Sequence record: ON470591.1
Reading direction: 5' to 3' (one strand)
Length of the DNA stretch: 26,627 nt
DNA from: Escherichia phage vB_EcoM-613R2
The position numbers and the translations under genes are program-made. The notes below the pieces were generated by a model that did no database searches, had not been told where the DNA came from, and saw only the letters and a list, made by a program, of their open reading frames with translations. Each line of letters starts with the position of its first letter. The stretch's first letter is position 1. Positions 1 to 25,982 of the stretch are shown piece after piece.

Positions 1-120
1 ATGATTCCCAGCCAGAAACCTGCGGTAAACTCATCGTTCAGCAATATGCTGTCCGGCTTCAAAGATAAGGTGACATCATCCCTTAACAGCGCGGCCAGTT
101 CAGTTAAAGGGCTGTTCTGA
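1..120 (+). CDS. Short open frame running from the window edge to a TGA at 118-120 (39 codons); possibly the 3' end of a gene that starts outside the window
   Basis: Open frame from base 1 to a stop at 118-120; no recognisable motif; too short to judge. Not in the ORF track because it is under 60 aa. Confidence 0.2.
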   Translation: MIPSQKPAVNSSFSNMLSGFKDKVTSSLNSAASSVKGLF

Positions 121-282
121 TTTAATGCTGGCCACTCATACCTGGTAATAAGTGGTCAGTCTTAACACTCACCATTTGATTGCACCCGTGTTGACGATTT
201 GTTACTGGATATCAGACACGCTGGATAGCCAGTAGAAACATACCATTAAAATTATTACAATAATTGGTCACATGATTATCTT

Positions 283-846
283 ATGCTGAATAATAAAGAT
301 ATGAATATTAATGAACTTAAAGACTGTATTCACTATGAAGTAATCGGTAGCGAGCGTCCTTTCTCCTGGCGAAAGGCAATTGTTCGCGCAATAAAACATA
401 GAAGGGTTCGTTATTTATTTTGGTGGCGCATAGCCAAATACCTTTTTGATAAAGGCGGATACTGTCGGAAGATTGCGGGAAAAATAGAACGTTTCATTCT
501 TGATAAATATAATGTAACAGTCCCTTTAACTGTAAATATAGGGAAAGGCTTTGATATTTCTTATCTCAACAGTGTTGTTATCGGTCACAAAGTAACAATC
601 GGTGAAAATTGTTCAATTAAGCCCGGAGTAACTATTGGACTTCGCGGGGAATTTAATGATATGGATATTGTTATAGGGCATAATGTGACCATTGGTTGTA
701 ATGCCACCATTCTTGGTGGCAAAGTGCGTATAGGAAACAATGTCACAATAGGTGCTCATGCATTGGTATTGCATGATATTCCTGATGATTCAACATTCAT
801 CACTAAATTTCAGTCTGAAGTTATCTGCTCGTCCTCCCGAACATAA
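283..846 (+). CDS. Hexapeptide-repeat (left-handed beta-helix) acetyltransferase, WcaB/CysE-like
   Basis: ATG at 283. The translation carries consecutive [LIV]-G-x-x-x-x hexads ([24 protein letters not shown] ... [40 protein letters not shown]), the pattern of serine/polysaccharide O-acetyltransferases. It is the only plus-strand gene, visibly more AT-rich than its neighbours, and its 3' end overlaps the 3' end of tfa by 37 bp. Confidence 0.8.
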
Positions 847-1427
847 CCCTGATTCATCAGCTCTGGCCATACGATATCCGGAGCTGTACTGGTGTCAATT
901 CTACTCACTAATACTCTGTATTTTCTCCAGGAATCCAGTTGTGAATTTTCCTCGTTTGTTGCTATTTCAAGATTAACTGCATCCTGCAGAATTGCGATGT
1001 TATCTGTTGCTTCCTGGATCAACCTTGCCTTTTTCTCTTCCGCTTCCCGTATCCGAAACAGTTTTTCTGCTTCCTCATCATTCACCCAGGATACGCCGTC
1101 CCACTTCTGATACTCCCCTGCTGGCGACAACCAGGTGACATTCTCTGGTAGCGGTCCGAGTTCAGAAATAAACAATGCGTCCCCCGACGCCACGTCATAG
1201 ACCGTTTTACCACGATGGTCTTCAACAATATTCCACGATTCATTTTCACTGTTAAAAACTGCCACAAAGCCAGCAGGAATTTCCGGTGGGGCGATATCTG
1301 TAGAATTAGCTGGCAGCCCTGTATGAGGTGGAATATATGCGTCACCTTCACCAATAAACTCATTAGTTCCGGCCAGCAGGTTATAAATTTTTACGGTACG
1401 TGATTGTTCACTCATTCTGAATGCCAT
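810..1427 (-). CDS. tfa: Tail fiber assembly protein (lambda Tfa family)
   Basis: The N-terminus [46 protein letters not shown] matches what I recall of lambda Tfa and the E. coli cryptic-prophage Tfa proteins. Its ATG overlaps the TAA of the tail fiber gene (TAATG), directly downstream of the fiber. Confidence 0.9.
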
Positions 1428-4273
1428 TATGCAAGCCTCACAATATAATTAAATGCGATGTTTTTAACGGTGTTTTCCGCGTTACCAGCAGCGTTAACGG
1501 TGATGGTGTGTCCATGTGAACCAATCTTAACAGAGTGCGTATGAGCGCCAATACCAACAGTGTGTGCATGTGCCCCAGCACTTGTAGCGGTACCTGATAC
1601 TGAGTGGGTATGTGCGCCAGAAGAAGGCACAGTTCCATTCCCCACCACCGTGCCACTTGATGAACCATCCAGCCAGTCGAAATTCATACCGCCACTGTTT
1701 GGTCTCCTTAATGGAACGGTATGAGTATGTGCGCCAGCACTATTTGCAGTACCAGATACATTGTGGGTATGTGCACCTGTGTTATTCGTTGATTTAGTAC
1801 CGTAATCAAACGACGATGTGGTTTTCGTACCCAAATCCGTACTGGATGCGCTGGCACTGTGGGTGTGCGATTTAATGCCATCCTGTTCCTGAGACAATAC
1901 GGCCCGACCACTGGCGGGTTTGCCCTTGATTGTCCAGCCGCGCATATCTGGAATAACACCAGAAGGATAGGCAATAGCCAGTTTCGGATATGCTGCCTTA
2001 TCAAACGTCTGCCCCTGCATGATTGCATAACCTGCAGGTGGCGTATCTGATGGCCACGGCAGCGGAACACCTGGCGGAAACGCTTCAATATTTGCCGAGC
2101 CGTCAAATTTTACGCCGTTAATTGTCCTTGCCGTTTTCAGCTTTGTTGCTGTAGCAGCATTGCCGGATAGTTCGCCTGAAAGACCACCGCTGAATGTCTG
2201 TTTCGCCATCCATGTCTGAGCTTCGTCGATAATTGGCACACGTCTTGTCGTGATCGTGCGGCTTCCCGGATTTCCTGAAATGCGAACCATAAAAAAGCGG
2301 TAGTTGGCTTTACTTACAGTGCTGCGCCATACATGCATTGAGCGTCCCGAACCAGAATCATCACTCGGACCGACTGAGATGTTTATCAGGTTGCCATCAA
2401 TGACGCCCCAGTCCATACCGTCGGGAATATTGGTCATGTTATCAAGCCGAACGGTTATCAGACTGCCCGGCACAAAATCGTAGGTCTGCCAGTCCAGGCT
2501 GGTGAGCTTTGCCACAGCACCGCCGATACCCAGATTCAGGGGAAGTGAATACGAGGTGTAGACTTCCCGCCATTCGCTCCATGAGCTGCCGGTAAAGACG
2601 CGCTCAAAGGTGCGGCCTTTAAGGGTTGTACCTGTTCCGGCAGTTGTATAACGCTGCCATACATTAACACCATCAAACCGCCTCAACACTTCCAGAATGC
2701 CGAGTACAGTCACGCCGTTTCCGTCCAGTACTGGACCGTTGGTCGCTTTACCTGTAACGCTGTAAATACCTGGTGAGGTTACATCATTCAAATCACCTTC
2801 GTAATAACGACTCTCTGACTGATGACCGACTCTTAACCACGGTTCCCACTGCGGATTTGATGCATCCCAGCTTGCCGCAAGACAGCGGACATACATATTT
2901 CCACGGCGAGTGGTATAACGTTGCGTTCTTCCATAATTTCCGCCTTCGAGGATCTCAAGCATCCCCTGAGCAAAGCCGCCTTCCTCTGGATAATTGCGTT
3001 CATATGAAGCTATAGCTGAGCTACTGTTACGCCATAAACCAAGATGCTCGGCGGCTCCAAGCGTATTCAGGTCTATAGTCGTACTCAAAGGGCGGGTAGC
3101 AGATTGAGTGTGACGCCATACGCCCCACGGACCATCAGTGCCATTCCACTTATTGGCGAGTTTACGCATGTATACATTGCCGTCTCTCGTGGTAAAGCGT
3201 TGCGTACCTGCAAAATGGCCGGCAGCAAAAACCTCAAGCACACCGACAGCATTATCTTCCGGGAAATTTTTCTCCAGTGTTGCGTTGGTGGATGTTGCTT
3301 TAGACCAGATACCTGAATAAGCCTTAACAGGACCAAACGTATTCAGATCAGCATCAAGCGGCATTTCGCCATTGTTTTTCATAAACGTCAGGCTGGTAAC
3401 GCCAACATTGTCCAGAAAAGCTGATTTATCCTGGATATCTGCACCGTTCTGATTTTTCGCCAGACGTGAATTTGCGTTGTCATTTGCTGCCTTGACCGCT
3501 TTTGGCGTTGCCGCCTGCGTTTCAGACGTACTGTTAGTGGCACTACTGAGCTGAACTATCCCTTTTTGTGCCGTGGTGGCATTCTGGGCGGTATATTTTC
3601 CGTCAGCCAGGTCATATGCAGCCTTAACAGCCTTAGGCGTCGCTGCGAGCTTTTCAGACGTGCTATTGGTGGCATTACTGAGTTGAACAATGCCTTTTGA
3701 TGTTAAAGTTGCATCAGGATGATTACGTGATTGCTCATGTTTTACAATAGCTTGCTTAAGCCGCTTTGCTGAAACAGCCAGGGAATCATCTGTACCTGCA
3801 TCAATTTCTTGTTCATTAGCAAATCTTGCTACTCCAACAACAGTTTCGGTTGCGGGAGGGTTAATAAACTCAACATCACCAAATGTAATGTTTTTAGTAT
3901 CAAGATTTTTAATTGCTATATCACTTGATATTAAAGCAATTGTAGAAGATGCTTTATTTATTATTACTTGTTCTTGCGAGTATACAGCAAACAATGTTCC
4001 TTTATTTGTATACAAACCTATTGTATGGACAACATACTCATCTTTACTATCATCCTTCGCAGTTACATGAATGGTATCAGGAGAAACGACTTTGCCTCCT
4101 ATTGTGGTAAGTCGCTTTATTTCATCTGTTATTTTTGTTTGTGTGGTTGATGTGGCATAATATCTACTACCTAAACCAACAGAAACGATCTCAACTTTAT
4201 TTGTTCCAGTCTTGTTGGCATTAACCAGCGCCTTACGCCCGGCGTCAGTCATCGTAAATAATAATTTACTCAC
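1427..4273 (-). CDS. Tail fiber protein (P2 H / lambda Stf-like long fiber)
   Basis: 948 aa. GTG start at 4273 preceded by AAGGA. Two tandem copies of the phage fiber repeat ([26 protein letters not shown]), internal R(F/Y)TTR.GN.Y.R repeats, and a His-rich C-terminus with repeated G-A-H-T-H-(S/N/T)-V motifs typical of fiber receptor-binding tips. Lies between the baseplate I gene and tfa. Confidence 0.9.
3476..3718 (-). repeat. Two tandem in-frame copies of the phage tail fiber repeat inside the fiber gene
   Basis: Protein residues about 186-222 and 231-266 are near-identical ([31 protein letters not shown] versus [31 protein letters not shown]); the underlying DNA is visibly repeated. Confidence 0.8.
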
Positions 4274-21551: not shown

Positions 21552-22103
21552 TTATTCTTCCTGCTTAATAAATCGGGATTCCTGGAGCGCCTGAAGCGCA
21601 AAATTAATCTCGTCTTCAATAATGCGCTCGATCTCCCTGGCTGTTTTGCCTTCACAACGGGGAGCTGCTCTTGGAGCAATACTAAATAAGCGGCTACGCA
21701 ATTCATTAGCTGCCAGAAATGCATCATCCCTGACCGCATCTTTAGCGATGAGAGAGCCTTCCTTTTCTTCAAATTCAAGGCGTTTCAGCTTTGCCTGATA
21801 AATTTTTTCTGCGGTCTTAGCCTTGTTGAATTGCACCGCAACACCGGAAGTACCACCAGCTAATCCGGCATCATCAGCGGGTAACTCTGGTTGTTCCGAA
21901 GATATCCCATGCCCTCTTTTTCCATTTTCAGCAGATACCTCACGACCAACCTGTCGGCTCGCTTCATAAGCCGCACTGGCTTTATCAAAATCCAGCTTGC
22001 CGCTTTTCAGCACTGGAATGCGACCGGAACGACAGAGCTTCGTAACCATTGCCGGAGAAATACCTTTCCGGCGGGCAAACTCTGACTTACTGACGATGGC
22101 CAT
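21552..22103 (-). CDS. Terminase small subunit (lambda Nu1-like, N-terminal helix-turn-helix)
   Basis: I place the start at the ATG at 22101-22103 (MAIVSKSEFARRKGISPAMV...), which overlaps the upstream TAA (TAATG). The ORF track opens 9 nt earlier at a TTG. The N-terminal HTH followed by PVL.SG.K resembles Nu1. Confidence 0.75.
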   Translation of the reverse strand: MAIVSKSEFARRKGISPAMVTKLCRSGRIPVLKSGKLDFDKASAAYEASRQVGREVSAENGKRGHGISSEQPELPADDAGLAGGTSGVAVQFNKAKTAEKIYQAKLKRLEFEEKEGSLIAKDAVRDDAFLAANELRSRLFSIAPRAAPRCEGKTAREIERIIEDEINFALQALQESRFIKQEE

Positions 22104-22693
22104 TACTTGCAACCATTAGCAAGATACTGAACAAATCCCTCATGCGTTTCATGCGCGTCGTGGTACTGACGATAAACATCCAGCAACAATGCAATTTCCA
22201 TATCCGTCGCGGGAATACGTTCTTTATCAATAGCCAGGTACTTAATTTGAACAACAGGGGAAGAATTATCGTCTTCTTCCTGCGGCTGTTCATCGCTTAA
22301 CATTTCGTCAAGCTCTGCATCATTAAACCCAAGCAGATCAATATCAAAATCATCATCCATTAACTCTTTGACTTCTTCGGCCAGAAGCTGCATATCCCAG
22401 CCAGCATTTAAGGCCAGCTTGTTATCTGCAATCCTGTAAGCCTTCTTCTGTTTTTCAGAAAGGTTACTCAACCGAATCGCCGGAACTTTATCCATTTCCA
22501 GAATTTCGGCTGCTGCAAGCCGCCCATGCCCCGCAATCAGTTCATTCTTTTCATCGATCAGCACAGGATTAGTGAAACCGAACTCACGGATACTGTTCAC
22601 CAACTGTTCAACTTGCTCATCTGAATGAGTCCGTGAATTTTTGGCATATCTGAGCAACTTACCGACTGGTAAATATTCGATTTTTAGAGCCAT
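22103..22693 (-). CDS. ParB N-terminal-domain (ParB-like nuclease/sulfiredoxin-fold) protein, copy 1
   Basis: 196 aa with the ParB-NTD-type core NSRTHS...PVLIDE.NELIAGHGRLAAA and QKKAYRIADNKLALNAGWD. Translationally coupled to the small terminase gene. Paralogous to 25359-25982. Confidence 0.8.
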   Translation of the reverse strand: MALKIEYLPVGKLLRYAKNSRTHSDEQVEQLVNSIREFGFTNPVLIDEKNELIAGHGRLAAAEILEMDKVPAIRLSNLSEKQKKAYRIADNKLALNAGWDMQLLAEEVKELMDDDFDIDLLGFNDAELDEMLSDEQPQEEDDNSSPVVQIKYLAIDKERIPATDMEIALLLDVYRQYHDAHETHEGFVQYLANGCK

Positions 22694-23249
22694 TTTTTAA
22701 CCGCCATAACACAACAGGTTAAAGAAAACTGTTTAACTTATTGATACTAAAAGAGAAAAATGACGATCTTTTTACTCATAAAAAATCACACAAACCAGCA
22801 TAATTATCTGATTTTATTAAGTTTTTATAAGTAAAAAGGATCTTGCGATGGTGTTTTGGTTAAAAGATTGGATGTATTTGCATGATTTATAACGATTTTT
22901 ATCAGAACAACATCACATTGGTTAAAGATCTGCGCGTATCTTGATGATCTAAAAGAAAATTTTCCACTTTCTTTTTACCAGTACAAATACAGAAAAAATC
23001 ACGTTTTCCCGATATTTTTCAATGAGATGAGTAAATTTCTTTTACCGCAACTTTTAACCTAACTTTTTTCACGTTTAGCTAGCCGAATATCGGGGTTCGA
23101 ATGACCCGCATCCAACGCTTTTGGCCAGAAGGACCCAATTCTGCCGGACGATGAAACGATGCTCGTGCTCCCCCACAGACAGCCAGCGAGCGACGCTACA
23201 GAACACAGTGAATACACTCTGCATAACAACACCATCAACCACACGATGA
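22694..23249. other. Long non-coding region of about 556 bp, AT-rich in its lower part and GC-richer in its upper 160 bp; candidate packaging (cos) and/or regulatory region
   Basis: No convincing ORF on either strand: the two small minus-strand ORFs overlap each other and have no Shine-Dalgarno. It is the only large gap in the window and sits upstream of the packaging operon. Confidence 0.4.
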
Positions 23250-23969
23250 TTAACGAGAGAAAGTCTTAGAAAGAATGTCATCAATAGCCTTTGTGACTTC
23301 ATCAGCAAACGCATCCTCACCAGCACGCAGCGCCACGCCATGCCAATCAAGACGCTGCGAATAGTTAGGTTGCTGGATAAACGTAAGGATCAACGTAGGA
23401 CGCCGCCCAACGCGCTGCCAGACGCCTGGTTGAAGCGGGTTACTTGTACCAGGTCGAACAACAAAAAACTCCGTAGGCTTGCCCTGACGGCGATTTTGAT
23501 GCGCATCTCGCTGAACTCTTAGGCCAGATAAGACCTGCTGTAATTGCCCCCGCGAAATATTCCCGTATTTGTCCAGCTTTGCGCCGGGACCAGGAGCAAG
23601 CTGCCAGCCGTTAGGCAAATATCCACCAGCCCTTAGCGCCCCTTCTGAGCGTTTGTACTGTCGTTGTCCACCTTCGATTTGCGGAGTCAACGTTACAGGG
23701 GCTGGCGTTCCTCCCCATTCACGAGCATACACAATGGCTGTAGGATCACTCTTCTTTGCGGCCAAAACGTAAGTAGAGTTCTGAATCCACGGCGTGGGCC
23801 TGTCAAATACCCGATTAATTTCATTCTTAATCGCAGCCTGAGAAGCCTTTGCCGTTCTGGTTGCCGCAAGCGCCATTGCGAACGGCAATTCGCGTTCTTC
23901 AAGGCGCTGGAGTTGTCGTTGAATATCCTGAGAAGAAAAATCCATCTTTATCTCAATTCTGTCAGCCAC
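23250..23969 (-). CDS. Hypothetical protein (239 aa), last gene of a three-gene operon with the ParB/methyltransferase genes
   Basis: GTG start at 23969 preceded by a strong AGGAGG 5 nt upstream; an alternative ATG lies at M9. GC-rich. Gly/Pro/Arg-rich central region. No motif recognised. Confidence 0.6.
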   Translation of the reverse strand: MADRIEIKMDFSSQDIQRQLQRLEERELPFAMALAATRTAKASQAAIKNEINRVFDRPTPWIQNSTYVLAAKKSDPTAIVYAREWGGTPAPVTLTPQIEGGQRQYKRSEGALRAGGYLPNGWQLAPGPGAKLDKYGNISRGQLQQVLSGLRVQRDAHQNRRQGKPTEFFVVRPGTSNPLQPGVWQRVGRRPTLILTFIQQPNYSQRLDWHGVALRAGEDAFADEVTKAIDDILSKTFSR

Positions 23970-23985
23970 CAGCGCCTCCTACACA

Positions 23986-25359
23986 CTACTTAATCAACGG
24001 CCGGAAAGCCGCCAGCACATCATCAGATCGTCCGATTGTTGAACCACCAGGCAACGGCAACTCAAACTCAAAACGAACAGCTTTCTCCAGACTCGCCCAA
24101 CTAAGGGAATCATCGTTAATGACGTGCAAATACCAGCTCTTACAGTTGAATATTGACCGCTTAATCCTGAAACCATGTACACGACACAACTGCTTCACTT
24201 CATCATCAGAGTGAAACTTCTGGTAAAACCAGTGCCCCTTCCGGTACAACGCGGTAAAACCGTTATGATCAATAAAATAAAGCCGGCTTTTGGAACTCGC
24301 CGCTTGTGTTTGCTTCAGGACTGTTTCCAGCTCTCCACGGCTACGACCAGAAAAGAATATTGACCCACCAGCTTTACACAGGCCTTTCAGAACCGTCAGA
24401 ACGGACCATTCAGCCTCGACACTATCGACCGAGTTCAAAACGCTATCGCAAATCACGTAGTCGTAACGCCCTCGCGTTTTTAAGTCGTCCACCAGCGTAT
24501 CAATCATCCGGTTTGTTGCGGTCCTATCCAGAGTGTTTCCAGCGCCCTTACGGCGGAAAAGCTCGAGATCATGCAGGTTATATCCCTTTGCCCTGAGCAT
24601 TCGCGCGTAGTCTCCCTGCCCCGAACCAAAATCAATTCCTCTTGGCGTCTTGGCGATGATCGGGAGGATCAACGACTCATACAGGTTTGATTTCAGGCTG
24701 CCACCATTACGCAACCGCATAAGCTGCGCATACGTCTGGATGTATGTTGTTTTCTCCAGATGAGAATACTCAAATACACCATAAGTTTTATTCAGATAAC
24801 TTTGGTATTTTCCCTTCTCAACATCAGGGATCACAAACACCGTTAGCGGTGTGCGCGTCATCTTCGCTGCTAATGCATACTGAGCACAGTGAATAACCTC
24901 GCCAGACTGAGTAGCAACACAACCACCCCACGGACCATACTTGATAACCAGTTCCGCTATGTTCTTTCGAACATATGCCATTTTCGCGCGCATATTGCCT
25001 GAGATCTGGCTTGCCGATACCTGAACAAAACCATGCTTATCTTCCAGACCGGACACCCTGCAACGCTCATCTCCGCTATCAAAATCCGTTCCGTTATGCA
25101 GTTGGTTAAACCGTACTTCGTCGTATACCGTCGTTTCACAGGGCAACACATACACCGCAGCACGCGTTATTCCCAACTTACGTAGCGCCTTCGTCCTTTG
25201 GTGTCCCGCCACCAGCAAATCGCCACGCACTATCAATGGCTTCACAAGCCCCAGCTCCCTGACGCTTTCCGCCAGCCTCGCAAGATCATCCTCACCGATA
25301 AAACGCGGGTTATATTCCGCGCCACGTAGGTGCGTTATGTCGTAATTGAGGTGAAGCAT
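23986..25359 (-). CDS. Fusion protein: N-terminal ParB-like domain plus C-terminal class I SAM-dependent methyltransferase domain
   Basis: I place the start at the ATG at 25357-25359, which overlaps the upstream TGA; the track opens at a GTG 6 nt earlier. N-terminus has a ParB-NTD-like LVAGHQRTKA. C-terminal half carries Rossmann methyltransferase motifs: motif I GIDFGSGQGDYARML, an acidic residue after beta-2 (NLHDLEL), YDYVICDSVLNSV, and LKGLCKAGGSIFFSG. No DPPY/NPPF amino-methyltransferase motif seen. Confidence 0.75.
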   Translation of the reverse strand: MLHLNYDITHLRGAEYNPRFIGEDDLARLAESVRELGLVKPLIVRGDLLVAGHQRTKALRKLGITRAAVYVLPCETTVYDEVRFNQLHNGTDFDSGDERCRVSGLEDKHGFVQVSASQISGNMRAKMAYVRKNIAELVIKYGPWGGCVATQSGEVIHCAQYALAAKMTRTPLTVFVIPDVEKGKYQSYLNKTYGVFEYSHLEKTTYIQTYAQLMRLRNGGSLKSNLYESLILPIIAKTPRGIDFGSGQGDYARMLRAKGYNLHDLELFRRKGAGNTLDRTATNRMIDTLVDDLKTRGRYDYVICDSVLNSVDSVEAEWSVLTVLKGLCKAGGSIFFSGRSRGELETVLKQTQAASSKSRLYFIDHNGFTALYRKGHWFYQKFHSDDEVKQLCRVHGFRIKRSIFNCKSWYLHVINDDSLSWASLEKAVRFEFELPLPGGSTIGRSDDVLAAFRPLIK

Positions 25360-25982
25360 CAGCACACCTCCCCAGCCAGCAATGCGGATACAAATCCGAT
25401 ATAGCTGCCATTATCATCAACATAACGAGACACCGCGCAGTCAAAACGATCCGCTTCCTCATCCGTTGCCGGGATTTTATGACCTCCAAATGACAGGTAC
25501 TGAACTTTTACGCCTGATTTGGCCTCATCCTTCTCAAATGGGATATCCATACCCTCTGTGTCATCGTAGACCGCCGCACTCAATAAGTTATCCAGTTCGC
25601 GCTGAGTAAAACCAATTGAGTCCAGAGCAAAATCATCGGCCGCAAGATCTGCAAGCTCCGCGCTTAACAGCTCTTCATCCCAACCAGCATTCAGCGGAAT
25701 ACGGTTGTCGGCCAGACGATATGCCTTCTTCTGATTCTCCGTTAGCCCTTCCAGAACAATGCAGGGAACGTCATCCATCCCCAACTGAGTGGCCGCAGCA
25801 ATTCGACCATGACCAGCAATTACAACGTTGTTCTCGTCTATCAGGATCGGATTAGTCCATCCGTACTCCTGTATGCTGGCAACAATCTGATCTACCTGCT
25901 CCACGGAGTGTGTGCGAGCGTTCTTTTCATAACCAATCAACACAGAAAGTGGTAAAGAAACCACATTAAGATGTTTTGTCAT
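25359..25982 (-). CDS. ParB N-terminal-domain (ParB-like nuclease/sulfiredoxin-fold) protein, copy 2
   Basis: 207 aa. Collinear similarity to copy 1 (NARTHS...NPILIDENNVVIAGHGRIAAA...QKKAYRLADNRIPLNAGWD...K.QYL....KIPATD). ATG at 25982. First gene of the three-gene operon. Confidence 0.8.
   Translation of the reverse strand: MTKHLNVVSLPLSVLIGYEKNARTHSVEQVDQIVASIQEYGWTNPILIDENNVVIAGHGRIAAATQLGMDDVPCIVLEGLTENQKKAYRLADNRIPLNAGWDEELLSAELADLAADDFALDSIGFTQRELDNLLSAAVYDDTEGMDIPFEKDEAKSGVKVQYLSFGGHKIPATDEEADRFDCAVSRYVDDNGSYIGFVSALLAGEVC

What the first reader, a model, noticed from the sequence alone, without database searches (positions are those of the whole stretch)
283..846. Hexapeptide acetyltransferase gene convergent with the tail fiber assembly gene
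The only plus-strand gene in the window encodes a WcaB/CysE-like left-handed beta-helix acetyltransferase. It is noticeably more AT-rich than the adjacent tfa and distal tail fiber sequence, and its 3' end overlaps the tfa 3' end by 37 bp. Either it is a phage cargo gene placed in the classic hot spot next to the tail fiber genes (possibly acetylating a surface polysaccharide and altering receptor or serotype), or it is a host gene and the prophage boundary lies within the first 280 bp. Soluble hexapeptide acetyltransferases are not the usual phage-borne O-antigen acetyltransferases, which are membrane acyltransferases.
Basis: partly seen in the sequence, partly recalled or inferred. Interest (0 to 1): 0.6.

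Follow-up and report, generated by a model that had tools for sequence, protein, structure and literature searches.

The report
Tail-fibre-linked phage acetyltransferase-like cargo gene
This is a real accessory gene of an E. coli phage-plasmid: a soluble acetyltransferase-fold protein that moves between unrelated phages together with the tail-fibre tip, has lost the usual catalytic histidine, and has no known function.

Summary
A + strand ORF at 283-846 encodes a left-handed beta-helix (LbH) protein. The conserved start is probably ATG 301, giving 181 aa. The ORF overlaps the 3' end of tfa by 37 bp and has lower GC than its neighbours (0.38 against 0.46-0.47).

The window is not a chromosomal prophage. 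It is a ~47 kb circular E. coli phage-plasmid, with an IncFII-type repA just upstream, so the "host gene at a prophage boundary" reading is refuted.

The gene belongs to a cassette of conserved promoter-like element, transferase, tfa and fibre tip. That cassette is ~94-96% identical in P2-like prophages and P1-like plasmids. A stranded 3' fragment of P2 gpU at 28-120 shows it was imported. Relatives lie convergent with a tail-fibre assembly gene in 57 of 80 IMG/VR viral loci.

It is not CysE or WcaB. It has no SATase_N domain and scores below all NCBIfam cut-offs. The catalytic Asp/His pair is replaced (T79, Y94), and only in the closest clade. That clade is still under purifying selection (dN/dS about 0.1).

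My best reading is a lysogen-expressed moron that alters an envelope glycan, with non-canonical chemistry. The function is untested. I class it as a new variant of a known kind, of moderate interest.

The parts
28..120 (+). Pseudogene fragment: the last ~30 codons of a P2 gpU-type tail protein, left over from the donor phage of the cassette.
   Evidence: RefSeq annotates it as a partial CDS. Window 30-3570 is 95.6% identical to P2-like prophage L002, where this stretch is the 3' end of a PF06995 Phage_P2_GpU gene. The peptides match.
213..300 (+). Upstream block conserved in four different phage backbones. It holds a promoter-like site: -35 TAGAAA at 233-238 and -10 TACAAT at 256-261 (TATAAT in two other backbones).
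   Evidence: Consensus scan. Alignment of the upstream regions of the window, P2-like, P1-like and L010 loci: similarity to the P1-like and L010 backbones begins only at about 213-232. Function as a promoter is inferred, not shown.
301..846 (+). Coding sequence of the SAT-fold LbH transferase-like protein (181 aa from ATG 301).
   Evidence: phrog_2154, E 7e-79; AF2 pLDDT 90.9; the closest solved folds are serine acetyltransferases; dN/dS 0.07-0.12.
508..807 (+). Left-handed beta-helix domain (residues 76-175 in 187-aa numbering), preceded by four helices (residues 9-75).
   Evidence: AF2 secondary structure. Hexapep matches. Alignment to SAT structures.
517..519 (+). Codon ACA = T79, at the position of the CysE Asp143 / WcaB Glu partner of the catalytic His.
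   Evidence: (D/E in 38 of 38 His-clade viral homologues; T in all 40 close ones).
562..564 (+). Codon TAT = Y94, at the position of the catalytic histidine (CysE His158).
   Evidence: H in 83 of 94 homologues; Y only in the 8 closest; E. coli K-12 WcaB has His here.
810..846 (.). 37-bp tail-to-tail overlap of the transferase and tfa coding sequences. No terminator-like site was found at the junction of the two genes.
   Evidence: The tfa 3' variant at 847-1030 was not seen without the transferase in the rows listed from 5426 E. coli genomes.
810..1427 (-). Tail fibre assembly gene (lambda Tfa-like, Caudo_TAP).
   Evidence: Pfam PF02413, E 1e-39. 87% nt identity to lambda tfa over 1030-1500.
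1427..3570 (-). Distal ~715 codons of the tail fibre gene (the full gene is 1427-4273), which belong to the exchanged cassette.
   Evidence: Window 30-3570 is 94.5-95.6% identical to P2-like prophages L002 and L003. Window 213-2059 is 93.8% identical to the P1-like plasmid L004. The 5' part at 3570-4273 is backbone-specific.

Best explanation
The gene is a moron, meaning an accessory gene with its own promoter, carried by a temperate myovirus-type phage-plasmid. It encodes a soluble protein, presumably trimeric, with the serine-acetyltransferase fold: a short helical domain followed by a left-handed beta-helix. It descends from the WcaB/EpsC-like lineage of cytoplasmic polysaccharide O-acetyltransferases.

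It is physically welded to the receptor-binding module. The unit promoter-transferase-tfa-fibre tip is exchanged whole between unrelated phage backbones.

I infer that it is transcribed from its own sigma-70-type promoter in the lysogen, against the direction of the late operon. I infer that it acts in the cytoplasm on an envelope-glycan precursor or a related small acceptor. That would change the cell surface, giving superinfection exclusion or a serotype or behaviour change. This is the role shown for NeuO of prophage CUS-3 and suggested for neaT in the same P2 moron position.

The chemistry cannot be the canonical one. The Asp/Glu-His general-base pair is replaced by Thr and Tyr, and neighbouring active-site positions are remodelled.

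Shown: identity, fold, cargo status, cassette mobility, loss of the dyad, purifying selection. Inferred: expression in the lysogen, the substrate class, and the benefit.
For: - Cargo status and context: the window is 100% identical to ~47 kb circular plasmids that carry phage structural genes plus repA and parA.
- Spread: the gene occurs in 184 of 5426 complete E. coli genomes, at 158 chromosomal and 58 plasmid places. In all but a few listed rows the annotated feature beside it is a tfa gene.
- Cassette: it is shared at ~94-96% identity with P2-like prophages and P1-like plasmids. A gpU remnant records the import.
- Family-level link to tail fibres: a convergent tfa lies within -30 to +56 nt in 57 of 80 IMG/VR loci. 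This includes homologues of 34-52% identity and several tfa types. The same holds in Hafnia phage yong2, Citrobacter phiNP and P1-like JL22.
- Promoter: the -35/-10 element is conserved in four backbones.
- Fold: AF2 pLDDT is 90.9 and the best Foldseek hits are serine acetyltransferases.
- Lineage: a remote homologue sits in a NeuB/glycosyltransferase/Wzy polysaccharide cluster. The LbH region is 38% identical to E. coli WcaB.
- Selection: dN/dS is 0.07-0.12.
- Precedents: NeuO is a prophage-encoded LbH O-acetyltransferase (PMC3046976). neaT is an AT-rich acyltransferase in the opposite orientation between P2 G and FI that affects surface behaviour (PMC3573123).
Against: - The catalytic His is Tyr, and its acidic partner is Thr (K or V in other members of the close clade). 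E. coli WcaB, the SAT structures in the PDB alignment, all 38 more distant viral homologues and 83 of 94 database homologues keep His. O-acetyl transfer by the usual mechanism is therefore doubtful.
- No substrate is known, and no host glycan pathway is linked to the gene.
- The transferase and the fibre module do not strictly co-vary. JL22 has a 78% identical Tfa but a 36-37% identical His-type transferase. This weakens the idea that the enzyme is matched to the fibre's receptor.
- Lambda-type Stf/Tfa fibres are known to use OmpC or LPS core (my own knowledge). A cytoplasmic acetyltransferase would not obviously modify either.
- The position after the tail-fibre genes is a general hot spot, so the linkage may be only physical.
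Confidence: 0.45

Rival explanations
1. It is a pseudoenzyme. The close clade has lost acetyl transfer and is kept for a non-catalytic role, for example binding or sequestering a nucleotide-sugar or lipid-linked intermediate, or a host or phage protein. It would use the stable LbH scaffold, presumably a trimer, for this.
For: Both dyad residues are lost together (T79, Y94). There are extra clade-specific changes one helix turn away: Q114P, N115G and T116V. H94Y is the only family-conserved position where the clade departs from both its sister clade and the outgroup. The clade is nevertheless under strong purifying selection. The Tyr is retained down to 53% identity, in Hafnia phage yong2, P0013 and P0014.
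Against: All other family-invariant residues are kept (R49, K88, G89, E108, N109 and the glycines). This looks like a maintained active site rather than a decaying one. Some LbH N-acetyltransferases are known to work without a catalytic base (my own knowledge: QdtC, WlbB), so loss of His need not abolish catalysis.
Confidence: 0.25
2. It is an anti-phage defence gene that does not work through receptor modification. It would act inside the cell against incoming phages, like other genes in the P2 G-FI (fun) locus.
For: In P2-like prophages the gene sits convergent with tfa, downstream of the fibre genes. In a canonical P2 gene order this is the G-FI position. Vassallo et al. describe a second defence-enriched P2 locus that contains fun and three new systems (PMC9519451). 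The gene is AT-rich, has its own promoter-like element and is widely exchanged.
Against: It matches none of the 5027 PADLOC models even at E <= 1. No acetyltransferase is mentioned in the P2 hotspot surveys I read. I know of no defence system consisting of a single LbH acetyltransferase gene. The family also occurs in other prophage positions, next to int.
Confidence: 0.15
3. It is a late-expressed function tied to the tail fibre itself, such as modification of the fibre or of its chaperone. It could be switched together with alternative fibres.
For: In P1-like JL22 a homologue lies inside the Cin-invertible segment, in the order cin, S', U', sacF, then tfa and stf on the other strand. In one orientation it would be co-transcribed after the alternative fibre genes. 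The family is tightly associated with tfa.
Against: In the window and in most loci the gene is convergent with the late operon and has its own conserved promoter-like element. No invertase crossover site exists in the window. It also occurs away from fibre genes.
Confidence: 0.05
4. It is a serine O-acetyltransferase (CysE-type), carried by the phage as an auxiliary gene for cysteine synthesis, as many database records name it.
For: RefSeq product names include 'serine acetyltransferase'. The best PDB and fold matches are SATs.
Against: NCBIfam cysE scores 71.5 bits against a cut-off of 210.65. There is no SATase_N domain. CysE D143, H158, R192 and H193 align with T, Y, M and D.
Confidence: 0.02
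5. It is a host chromosomal gene lying just outside a prophage end.
For: None was found. It was proposed only from the strand switch and the lower GC.
Against: The element is a circular plasmid. Upstream lie a gpU remnant and repA. Every chromosomal copy I inspected is inside a prophage.
Confidence: 0.01

Closest known systems
phrog_2154 (PHROGs family of unknown function). Named examples: 'sat' of Citrobacter phage phiNP, 'sacF' of P1-like phage-plasmid JL22, and the serine acetyltransferase of Hafnia phage yong2.
   Same: Full-length profile match at E 7e-79. Same size and fold, and the same position convergent with tfa. The literature lists these genes without a function (PMC9603915; PMC6456863).
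   Different: phiNP and JL22 proteins keep the Asp/Glu-His dyad. The window protein and its close clade, including yong2, have Thr/Lys/Val and Tyr instead.
WcaB (colanic acid O-acetyltransferase) and EpsC-type short SAT-like polysaccharide acetyltransferases.
   Same: Short helical N-domain plus LbH, about 160-190 aa, soluble. 38% identity to E. coli K-12 WcaB over 98 residues. The best NCBIfam hits are EpsC, CysE and WcaB. A remote homologue lies in a polysaccharide gene cluster.
   Different: Scores are far below the curated cut-offs: 81 against 150 for EpsC, and 62.4 against 196 and 60.1 against 194.65 for the two WcaB models. The gene is not in a polysaccharide cluster. WcaB has Glu and His where this protein has T79 and Y94.
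CysE serine O-acetyltransferase.
   Same: Closest solved fold (TM-score about 0.7 normalised to the query) and closest PDB sequences.
   Different: No SATase_N domain. The catalytic D143 and H158 and the serine-binding R192 and H193 are all replaced. It scores below the cut-off.
NeuO, the polysialic acid O-acetyltransferase of E. coli K1 prophage CUS-3.
   Same: A prophage-encoded soluble LbH acetyltransferase that modifies a surface polysaccharide from the cytoplasm. It is the functional precedent for the lysogenic-conversion reading (PMC3046976).
   Different: NeuO belongs to another LbH subfamily and was not among the 55 PDB sequence hits. It uses a catalytic His plus Trp, and it is phase-variable through heptanucleotide repeats. 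No tandem repeat exists here.
neaT of P2-like prophage phi-b0847 (E. coli CFT073), and the P2 'moron position 2' / fun locus.
   Same: In P2-like prophages this gene also lies directly downstream of, and convergent with, the fibre assembly gene, which is the position described for neaT between G and FI. Both are AT-rich, and neaT was cloned and expressed with its native upstream region. neaT changes aggregation and virulence (PMC3573123). The locus is also enriched for defence genes (PMC9519451).
   Different: neaT is a membrane Acyl_transf_3 (PF01757) protein, unrelated in fold.

Membership tests
Hexapeptide-repeat / left-handed beta-helix acyltransferase superfamily | Tandem hexapeptide repeats detectable by profile | tested here: met
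   Pfam PF00132: E 1.1e-12, 47.5 bits against a cut-off of 27.
Hexapeptide-repeat / left-handed beta-helix acyltransferase superfamily | LbH fold | tested here: met
   AF2 model with pLDDT 90.9 and short beta strands at 76-175. Foldseek top hits are all LbH serine acetyltransferases.
Hexapeptide-repeat / left-handed beta-helix acyltransferase superfamily | Catalytic histidine in the loop at the subunit interface (general base of the O-acyltransferases) | tested here: not met
   Y94 aligns with CysE H158 and with the WcaB His. His is present in 83 of 94 homologues and in all 38 more distant viral homologues.
Hexapeptide-repeat / left-handed beta-helix acyltransferase superfamily | Homotrimer with acyl-CoA bound between subunits | not testable with these tools
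   Only a monomer model without coordinates was available.
CysE serine O-acetyltransferase | N-terminal SATase_N helical domain and a score above the TIGR01172 / PRK11132 cut-offs | tested here: not met
   No SATase_N hit. Scores are 71.5 against 210.65 and 44.7 against 397.
CysE serine O-acetyltransferase | Asp143-His158 dyad and Arg192/His193 serine-binding residues (residue roles from my own knowledge) | tested here: not met
   These align with T79, Y94, M127 and D128.
WcaB colanic acid acetyltransferase | Equivalog score (TIGR04016 / PRK10191) and location in the wca cluster | tested here: not met
   Scores are 60.1 against 194.65 and 62.4 against 196. The gene is on a phage-plasmid beside tfa. 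The K-12 wcaB context is shown.
phrog_2154 (phage protein family, function unknown) | Full-length profile match | tested here: met
   E 6.9e-79; residues 5-186 match profile positions 2-184 of 185.
Moron / lysogenic-conversion cargo | Variable presence at a permissive site, composition unlike the neighbours, not part of the structural operon | tested here: met
   Present in 184 of 5426 genomes and across several backbones. GC is 0.377 against 0.456-0.471. It lies on the opposite strand to all other genes.
Moron / lysogenic-conversion cargo | Own promoter, expressed in the lysogen | tested here: inconclusive
   A promoter-like TAGAAA-17-TACAAT/TATAAT element is conserved in four backbones. No expression data were available.
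NeuO-type phage polysaccharide O-acetyltransferase | Catalytic His/Trp pair; phase-variable 5' heptanucleotide repeats; detectable sequence relationship | tested here: not met
   His is absent. There is no tandem repeat in 150-900. NeuO is not among the PDB sequence hits at E <= 1e-3.
Known anti-phage defence systems (PADLOC-DB v2) | Match to any defence protein model | tested here: not met
   0 families at E <= 1.
Invertible tail-fibre segment (Mu G / P1 C type) | Invertase gene and crossover sites flanking alternative fibre/tfa genes | tested here: not met
   No AAACCNNGGTTT-type core in the window. No invertase gene nearby. A homologue does lie inside such a segment in JL22.

The most novel reading that the evidence does not exclude
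The close clade (T79/Y94, with P114/G115) would be a repurposed SAT-fold protein that no longer performs histidine-dependent O-acetylation. It would be either a base-independent transferase acting on a new acceptor, such as an amine, or a non-catalytic binder. Its function would be tied to lambda-Tfa-type tail-fibre cassettes, for example masking or altering the receptor that the co-transferred fibre tip recognises. A phage that swaps host range would then acquire the matching self-exclusion in the same recombination event.
Probability: 0.3. Interest if true: 0.65.

Novelty: new variant of a known kind. Interest (0 to 1): 0.45.

Why it matters
About 3% of complete E. coli genomes carry this gene, including ETEC, STEC and ESBL-plasmid-bearing clinical strains. 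It sits on three or more kinds of temperate phage, and databases propagate the misleading name "serine acetyltransferase".

If it alters the cell surface, it would be a widespread, unrecognised lysogenic-conversion factor. It could affect phage susceptibility, which matters for phage therapy host-range prediction, and possibly serology.

Its linkage to the fibre tip would then illustrate how receptor specificity and self-exclusion can be inherited as one unit. The replacement of the catalytic dyad under purifying selection also makes it a candidate for new chemistry, or for a pseudoenzyme role, in a well-studied enzyme fold.

Tried and rejected
- Host-gene or prophage-boundary reading: rejected, because the element is a plasmid and upstream lie a gpU remnant and repA.
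- CysE and WcaB membership: rejected on curated scores and defining residues.
- Known defence system: no PADLOC hit. P2 hotspot papers mention no acetyltransferase.
- Invertible-segment remnant in the window: no hix/cix/gix-type core and no invertase gene. The inverted repeats found are short and look like chance.
- NeuO-like phase variation: no tandem repeat.
- Membrane protein: no hydrophobic 19-mer above 1.06.
- A compensating His elsewhere: H102 and H134 are not conserved within the Tyr clade, and H159 is shared with the His clade.
- Strict co-evolution of transferase and Tfa: not supported, because JL22 has a 78% identical Tfa with a 36-37% identical transferase.
- The search for related loci on genome contigs with alignment A2: failed because no stretch was conserved enough, so taxonomic spread across species representatives was not measured.
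- Classifying the 47 kb phage-plasmid: pSLy3 belongs to the SSU5 supergroup and does not fit. The element remains unclassified here.

Full report
**1. The observation**

The + strand ORF at 283-846 (187 aa) is real. The tail fibre assembly gene tfa lies at 810-1427 on the - strand, so the two coding sequences overlap tail-to-tail by 37 bp. The protein matches the Pfam hexapeptide repeat at E 1e-12. Its best NCBIfam matches are EpsC, CysE and WcaB, all far below their curated cut-offs.

GC is 0.377 for the gene, 0.456 for tfa, 0.471 for the fibre gene and 0.428 for the window.

Two details need correcting.
- The start is probably ATG 301 (181 aa), as RefSeq annotates. That Met is conserved in diverged homologues, while the ATG at 283 is destroyed in locus L010.
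- A + strand pseudogene fragment lies at 28-120.

**2. What the window is**

Window 1-1500 is 100% identical to a set of ~47 kb circular E. coli plasmids. One of them, NZ_AP022164.1, carries terminase, portal, capsid, sheath, tube, tape measure, baseplate, fibre and lysis genes. It also carries an IncFII-type repA, parA and a RelE/ParE toxin module.

The window is therefore part of a phage-plasmid, not an integrated prophage. There is no chromosomal junction in the first 280 bp. Immediately upstream of the transferase are a gene remnant and then repA. Every other annotated gene in the window is on the - strand.

**3. A mobile cassette**

- Window 30-3570 is 94.5-95.6% identical to chromosomal P2-like prophages (L002, L003).
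- Window 213-2059 is 93.8% identical to a P1-like plasmid (L004).
- The shared unit is: a short upstream block, the transferase, tfa and the distal part of the fibre gene. The proximal 700 bp of the fibre gene are specific to each backbone.
- Window 28-120 is the last ~30 codons of P2 gpU (PF06995 in L002). In these P2-like prophages gpU lies next to the transferase. The phage-plasmid therefore acquired the cassette from such a prophage.

The gene occurs in 184 of 5426 complete E. coli genomes, at 158 chromosomal and 58 plasmid places. In all but a few listed rows the annotated feature beside it is a tfa gene. The particular tfa 3' variant it overlaps was not seen without it in the listed rows. 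A 90%-identical copy sits beside another tfa in yet another prophage type (L010).

**4. The association with tail fibre genes is a family trait**

The protein is a full-length member of phrog_2154, a family of unknown function (E 7e-79). A scan of IMG/VR found 276 viral contigs that encode relatives. Of the 80 loci fetched, 57 have a convergent tfa within -30 to +56 nt of the transferase stop. This includes homologues of only 34-52% identity and several Tfa types.

Of the 23 loci without a detected tfa, I ran Pfam on ten downstream ORFs. These gave one fibre-like Gp10_C protein, a Baseplate_J protein, a minor tail protein and a spike-like protein. They also gave an S24 peptidase and a type VI secretion protein, and four had no hit. 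Four further loci face long ORFs whose N-termini look like tail fibres, two lie near integrase-like ORFs, and two end at the contig edge. Those last assignments rest on my reading of the sequences.

The same arrangement is annotated in Hafnia phage yong2, Citrobacter phage phiNP and P1-like JL22. In JL22 the gene lies inside the Cin-invertible segment. Other homologues sit next to int at prophage ends.

**5. The protein**

The AF2 model has pLDDT 90.9. It shows four N-terminal helices (residues 9-75) followed by a left-handed beta-helix (76-175). The closest solved structures are serine acetyltransferases, with TM-score about 0.7. There is no transmembrane segment.

A remote homologue lies in a polysaccharide cluster with NeuB, glycosyltransferases and Wzy. 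The LbH part is 38% identical to E. coli WcaB. The lineage is therefore that of short, SAT-like, cytoplasmic polysaccharide O-acetyltransferases.

**6. The unexpected feature**

The alignment to SAT structures gives these correspondences:

| CysE residue | Role (my own knowledge) | Window residue |
|---|---|---|
| Asp143 | partner of the catalytic His | T79 |
| His158 | catalytic base | Y94 |
| Arg192 | serine binding | M127 |
| His193 | serine binding | D128 |

E. coli WcaB has Glu and His at the first two positions. Among 94 database homologues, position 94 is His in 83, Tyr in only the 8 closest and Asn in 3.

Among the viral loci the split is clean.
- All 40 copies with at least 89% identity have T79 and Y94.
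- All 38 copies with 34-52% identity have Asp or Glu at 79 and His at 94.

Tyr is also kept in members as distant as 53% identity: Hafnia phage yong2, P0013 and P0014. H94Y is the only family-conserved position at which this clade departs from both its sister clade and the outgroup. It is accompanied by clade-specific changes one helix turn away (Q114P, N115G, T116V) and a few others.

The clade is nevertheless under strong purifying selection: dN/dS is 0.07-0.12 at dS up to 0.5. Copies are rarely disrupted.

The NeuO structure paper states that all LbH members crystallised up to 2011 share a catalytic histidine (PMC3046976). From my own knowledge, a few LbH N-acetyltransferases (QdtC, WlbB) work without a catalytic base. 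Loss of His therefore does not prove loss of catalysis.

**7. Expression signals**

A promoter-like element is conserved in four different backbones: -35 TAGAAA at 233-238, a 17-nt spacer, and -10 TACAAT at 256-261 (a perfect TATAAT in two other backbones). Similarity to the P1-like and L010 backbones starts just upstream of it.

No terminator-like site was found at the junction of the two convergent genes. Late transcription and transferase transcription would therefore collide. That this is a lysogen-expressed moron is an inference.

**8. Mechanism and rivals**

| Reading | Confidence |
|---|---|
| Lysogen-expressed cargo gene acting in the cytoplasm on an envelope-glycan precursor or related acceptor, changing the cell surface, with non-canonical chemistry | 0.45 |
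| Pseudoenzyme or binding protein | 0.25 |
| Intracellular anti-phage defence gene | 0.15 |
| Late, fibre-directed function | 0.05 |
| True serine acetyltransferase | 0.02 |
| Host gene at a prophage boundary | 0.01 |

- The best-supported reading rests on two precedents. NeuO of CUS-3 is a soluble LbH enzyme. neaT is a membrane acyltransferase in the same position and orientation in a P2-like prophage (PMC3573123).
- The defence reading has positional support: the P2 G-FI locus is defence-enriched (PMC9519451). However, there is no PADLOC match.
- The last two readings are refuted on defining features and on context.
- Against a strict match between the transferase and the fibre receptor, JL22 pairs a 78% identical Tfa with a 36-37% identical transferase.

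**9. Novelty**

The gene has been noticed before and left unexplained. The JL22 paper says the reason for its presence "is still unknown" (PMC9603915). The phiNP paper lists it as a "fitness" gene (PMC6456863).

What I did not find described is the following:
- the family-wide linkage to tail-fibre assembly genes;
- the movement of the gene as one cassette with the fibre tip across P2-like, P1-like and 47 kb phage-plasmid backbones;
- the replacement of the catalytic dyad in the commonest E. coli clade while selection is maintained.

I class it as a new variant of a known kind, of moderate interest.

Noticed in passing
window 28-120 (+): A stranded 3' fragment of a P2 gpU tail gene lies on a non-P2 phage-plasmid, next to an IncFII-type repA. 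It is a recombination scar that shows where the fibre cassette came from.
   Followed up: yes
L002 5242-12091, L003 5249-12091, L011 1-4838 (P2-like prophages in E. coli chromosomes): The FI-FII-E-E'-T-U tail gene block is inverted relative to V-W-J-I-H-G, and gpD is truncated to 265 aa with a partial PF05954 match. This is seen at two or more different integration sites. These widespread prophages may be defective, or may represent an unusual P2-like gene order.
   Followed up: partly
L008 1773-9140 (P1-like phage-plasmid JL22): A His-type homologue (sacF) lies inside the Cin-invertible C segment, in the order cin, S', U', sacF, then tfa and stf on the other strand. Its orientation relative to the late promoter would flip with the segment.
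   Followed up: partly
L004 5995-7019 (P1-like plasmid pCTX_B2_4): About 1 kb has no annotated gene between the holin gene and the transferase. P1 has lydC, cin and the alternative S'/U' genes here, so the cassette seems to have replaced the invertase half of the C segment.
   Followed up: no
L017 6001-7697 (Enterobacteriaceae bacterium BIT-l23 chromosome): Three tandem hexapeptide-repeat genes of 181, 193 and 195 aa lie in an apparently non-phage context. The first is a 49-52% identical His-type homologue.
   Followed up: no
window 22103-25982 (-): Three ParB/Srx N-terminal-domain genes lie just upstream of the terminase gene of the phage-plasmid. The same plasmid, outside the window, also carries a tRNA-Ile and an MT-A70 methyltransferase.
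   Followed up: no
H88, NZ_CM180514.1 2069568-2070908: One E. coli strain (E8) has an IS1 insertion that splits the transferase gene. A few other strains have deletions that fuse it to fibre remnants (H115, L011 5019-5981).
   Followed up: no
window 847-1030 (-): The C-terminal third of this Tfa differs from lambda Tfa; similarity to lambda starts only at 1030. In the listed rows from 5426 E. coli genomes, this variant appears only together with the transferase.
   Followed up: partly
P0083, P0099, P0106 (remote homologues): Three remote homologues have Asn instead of His at the catalytic position. This suggests that loss of the histidine has happened more than once in this family.
   Followed up: no
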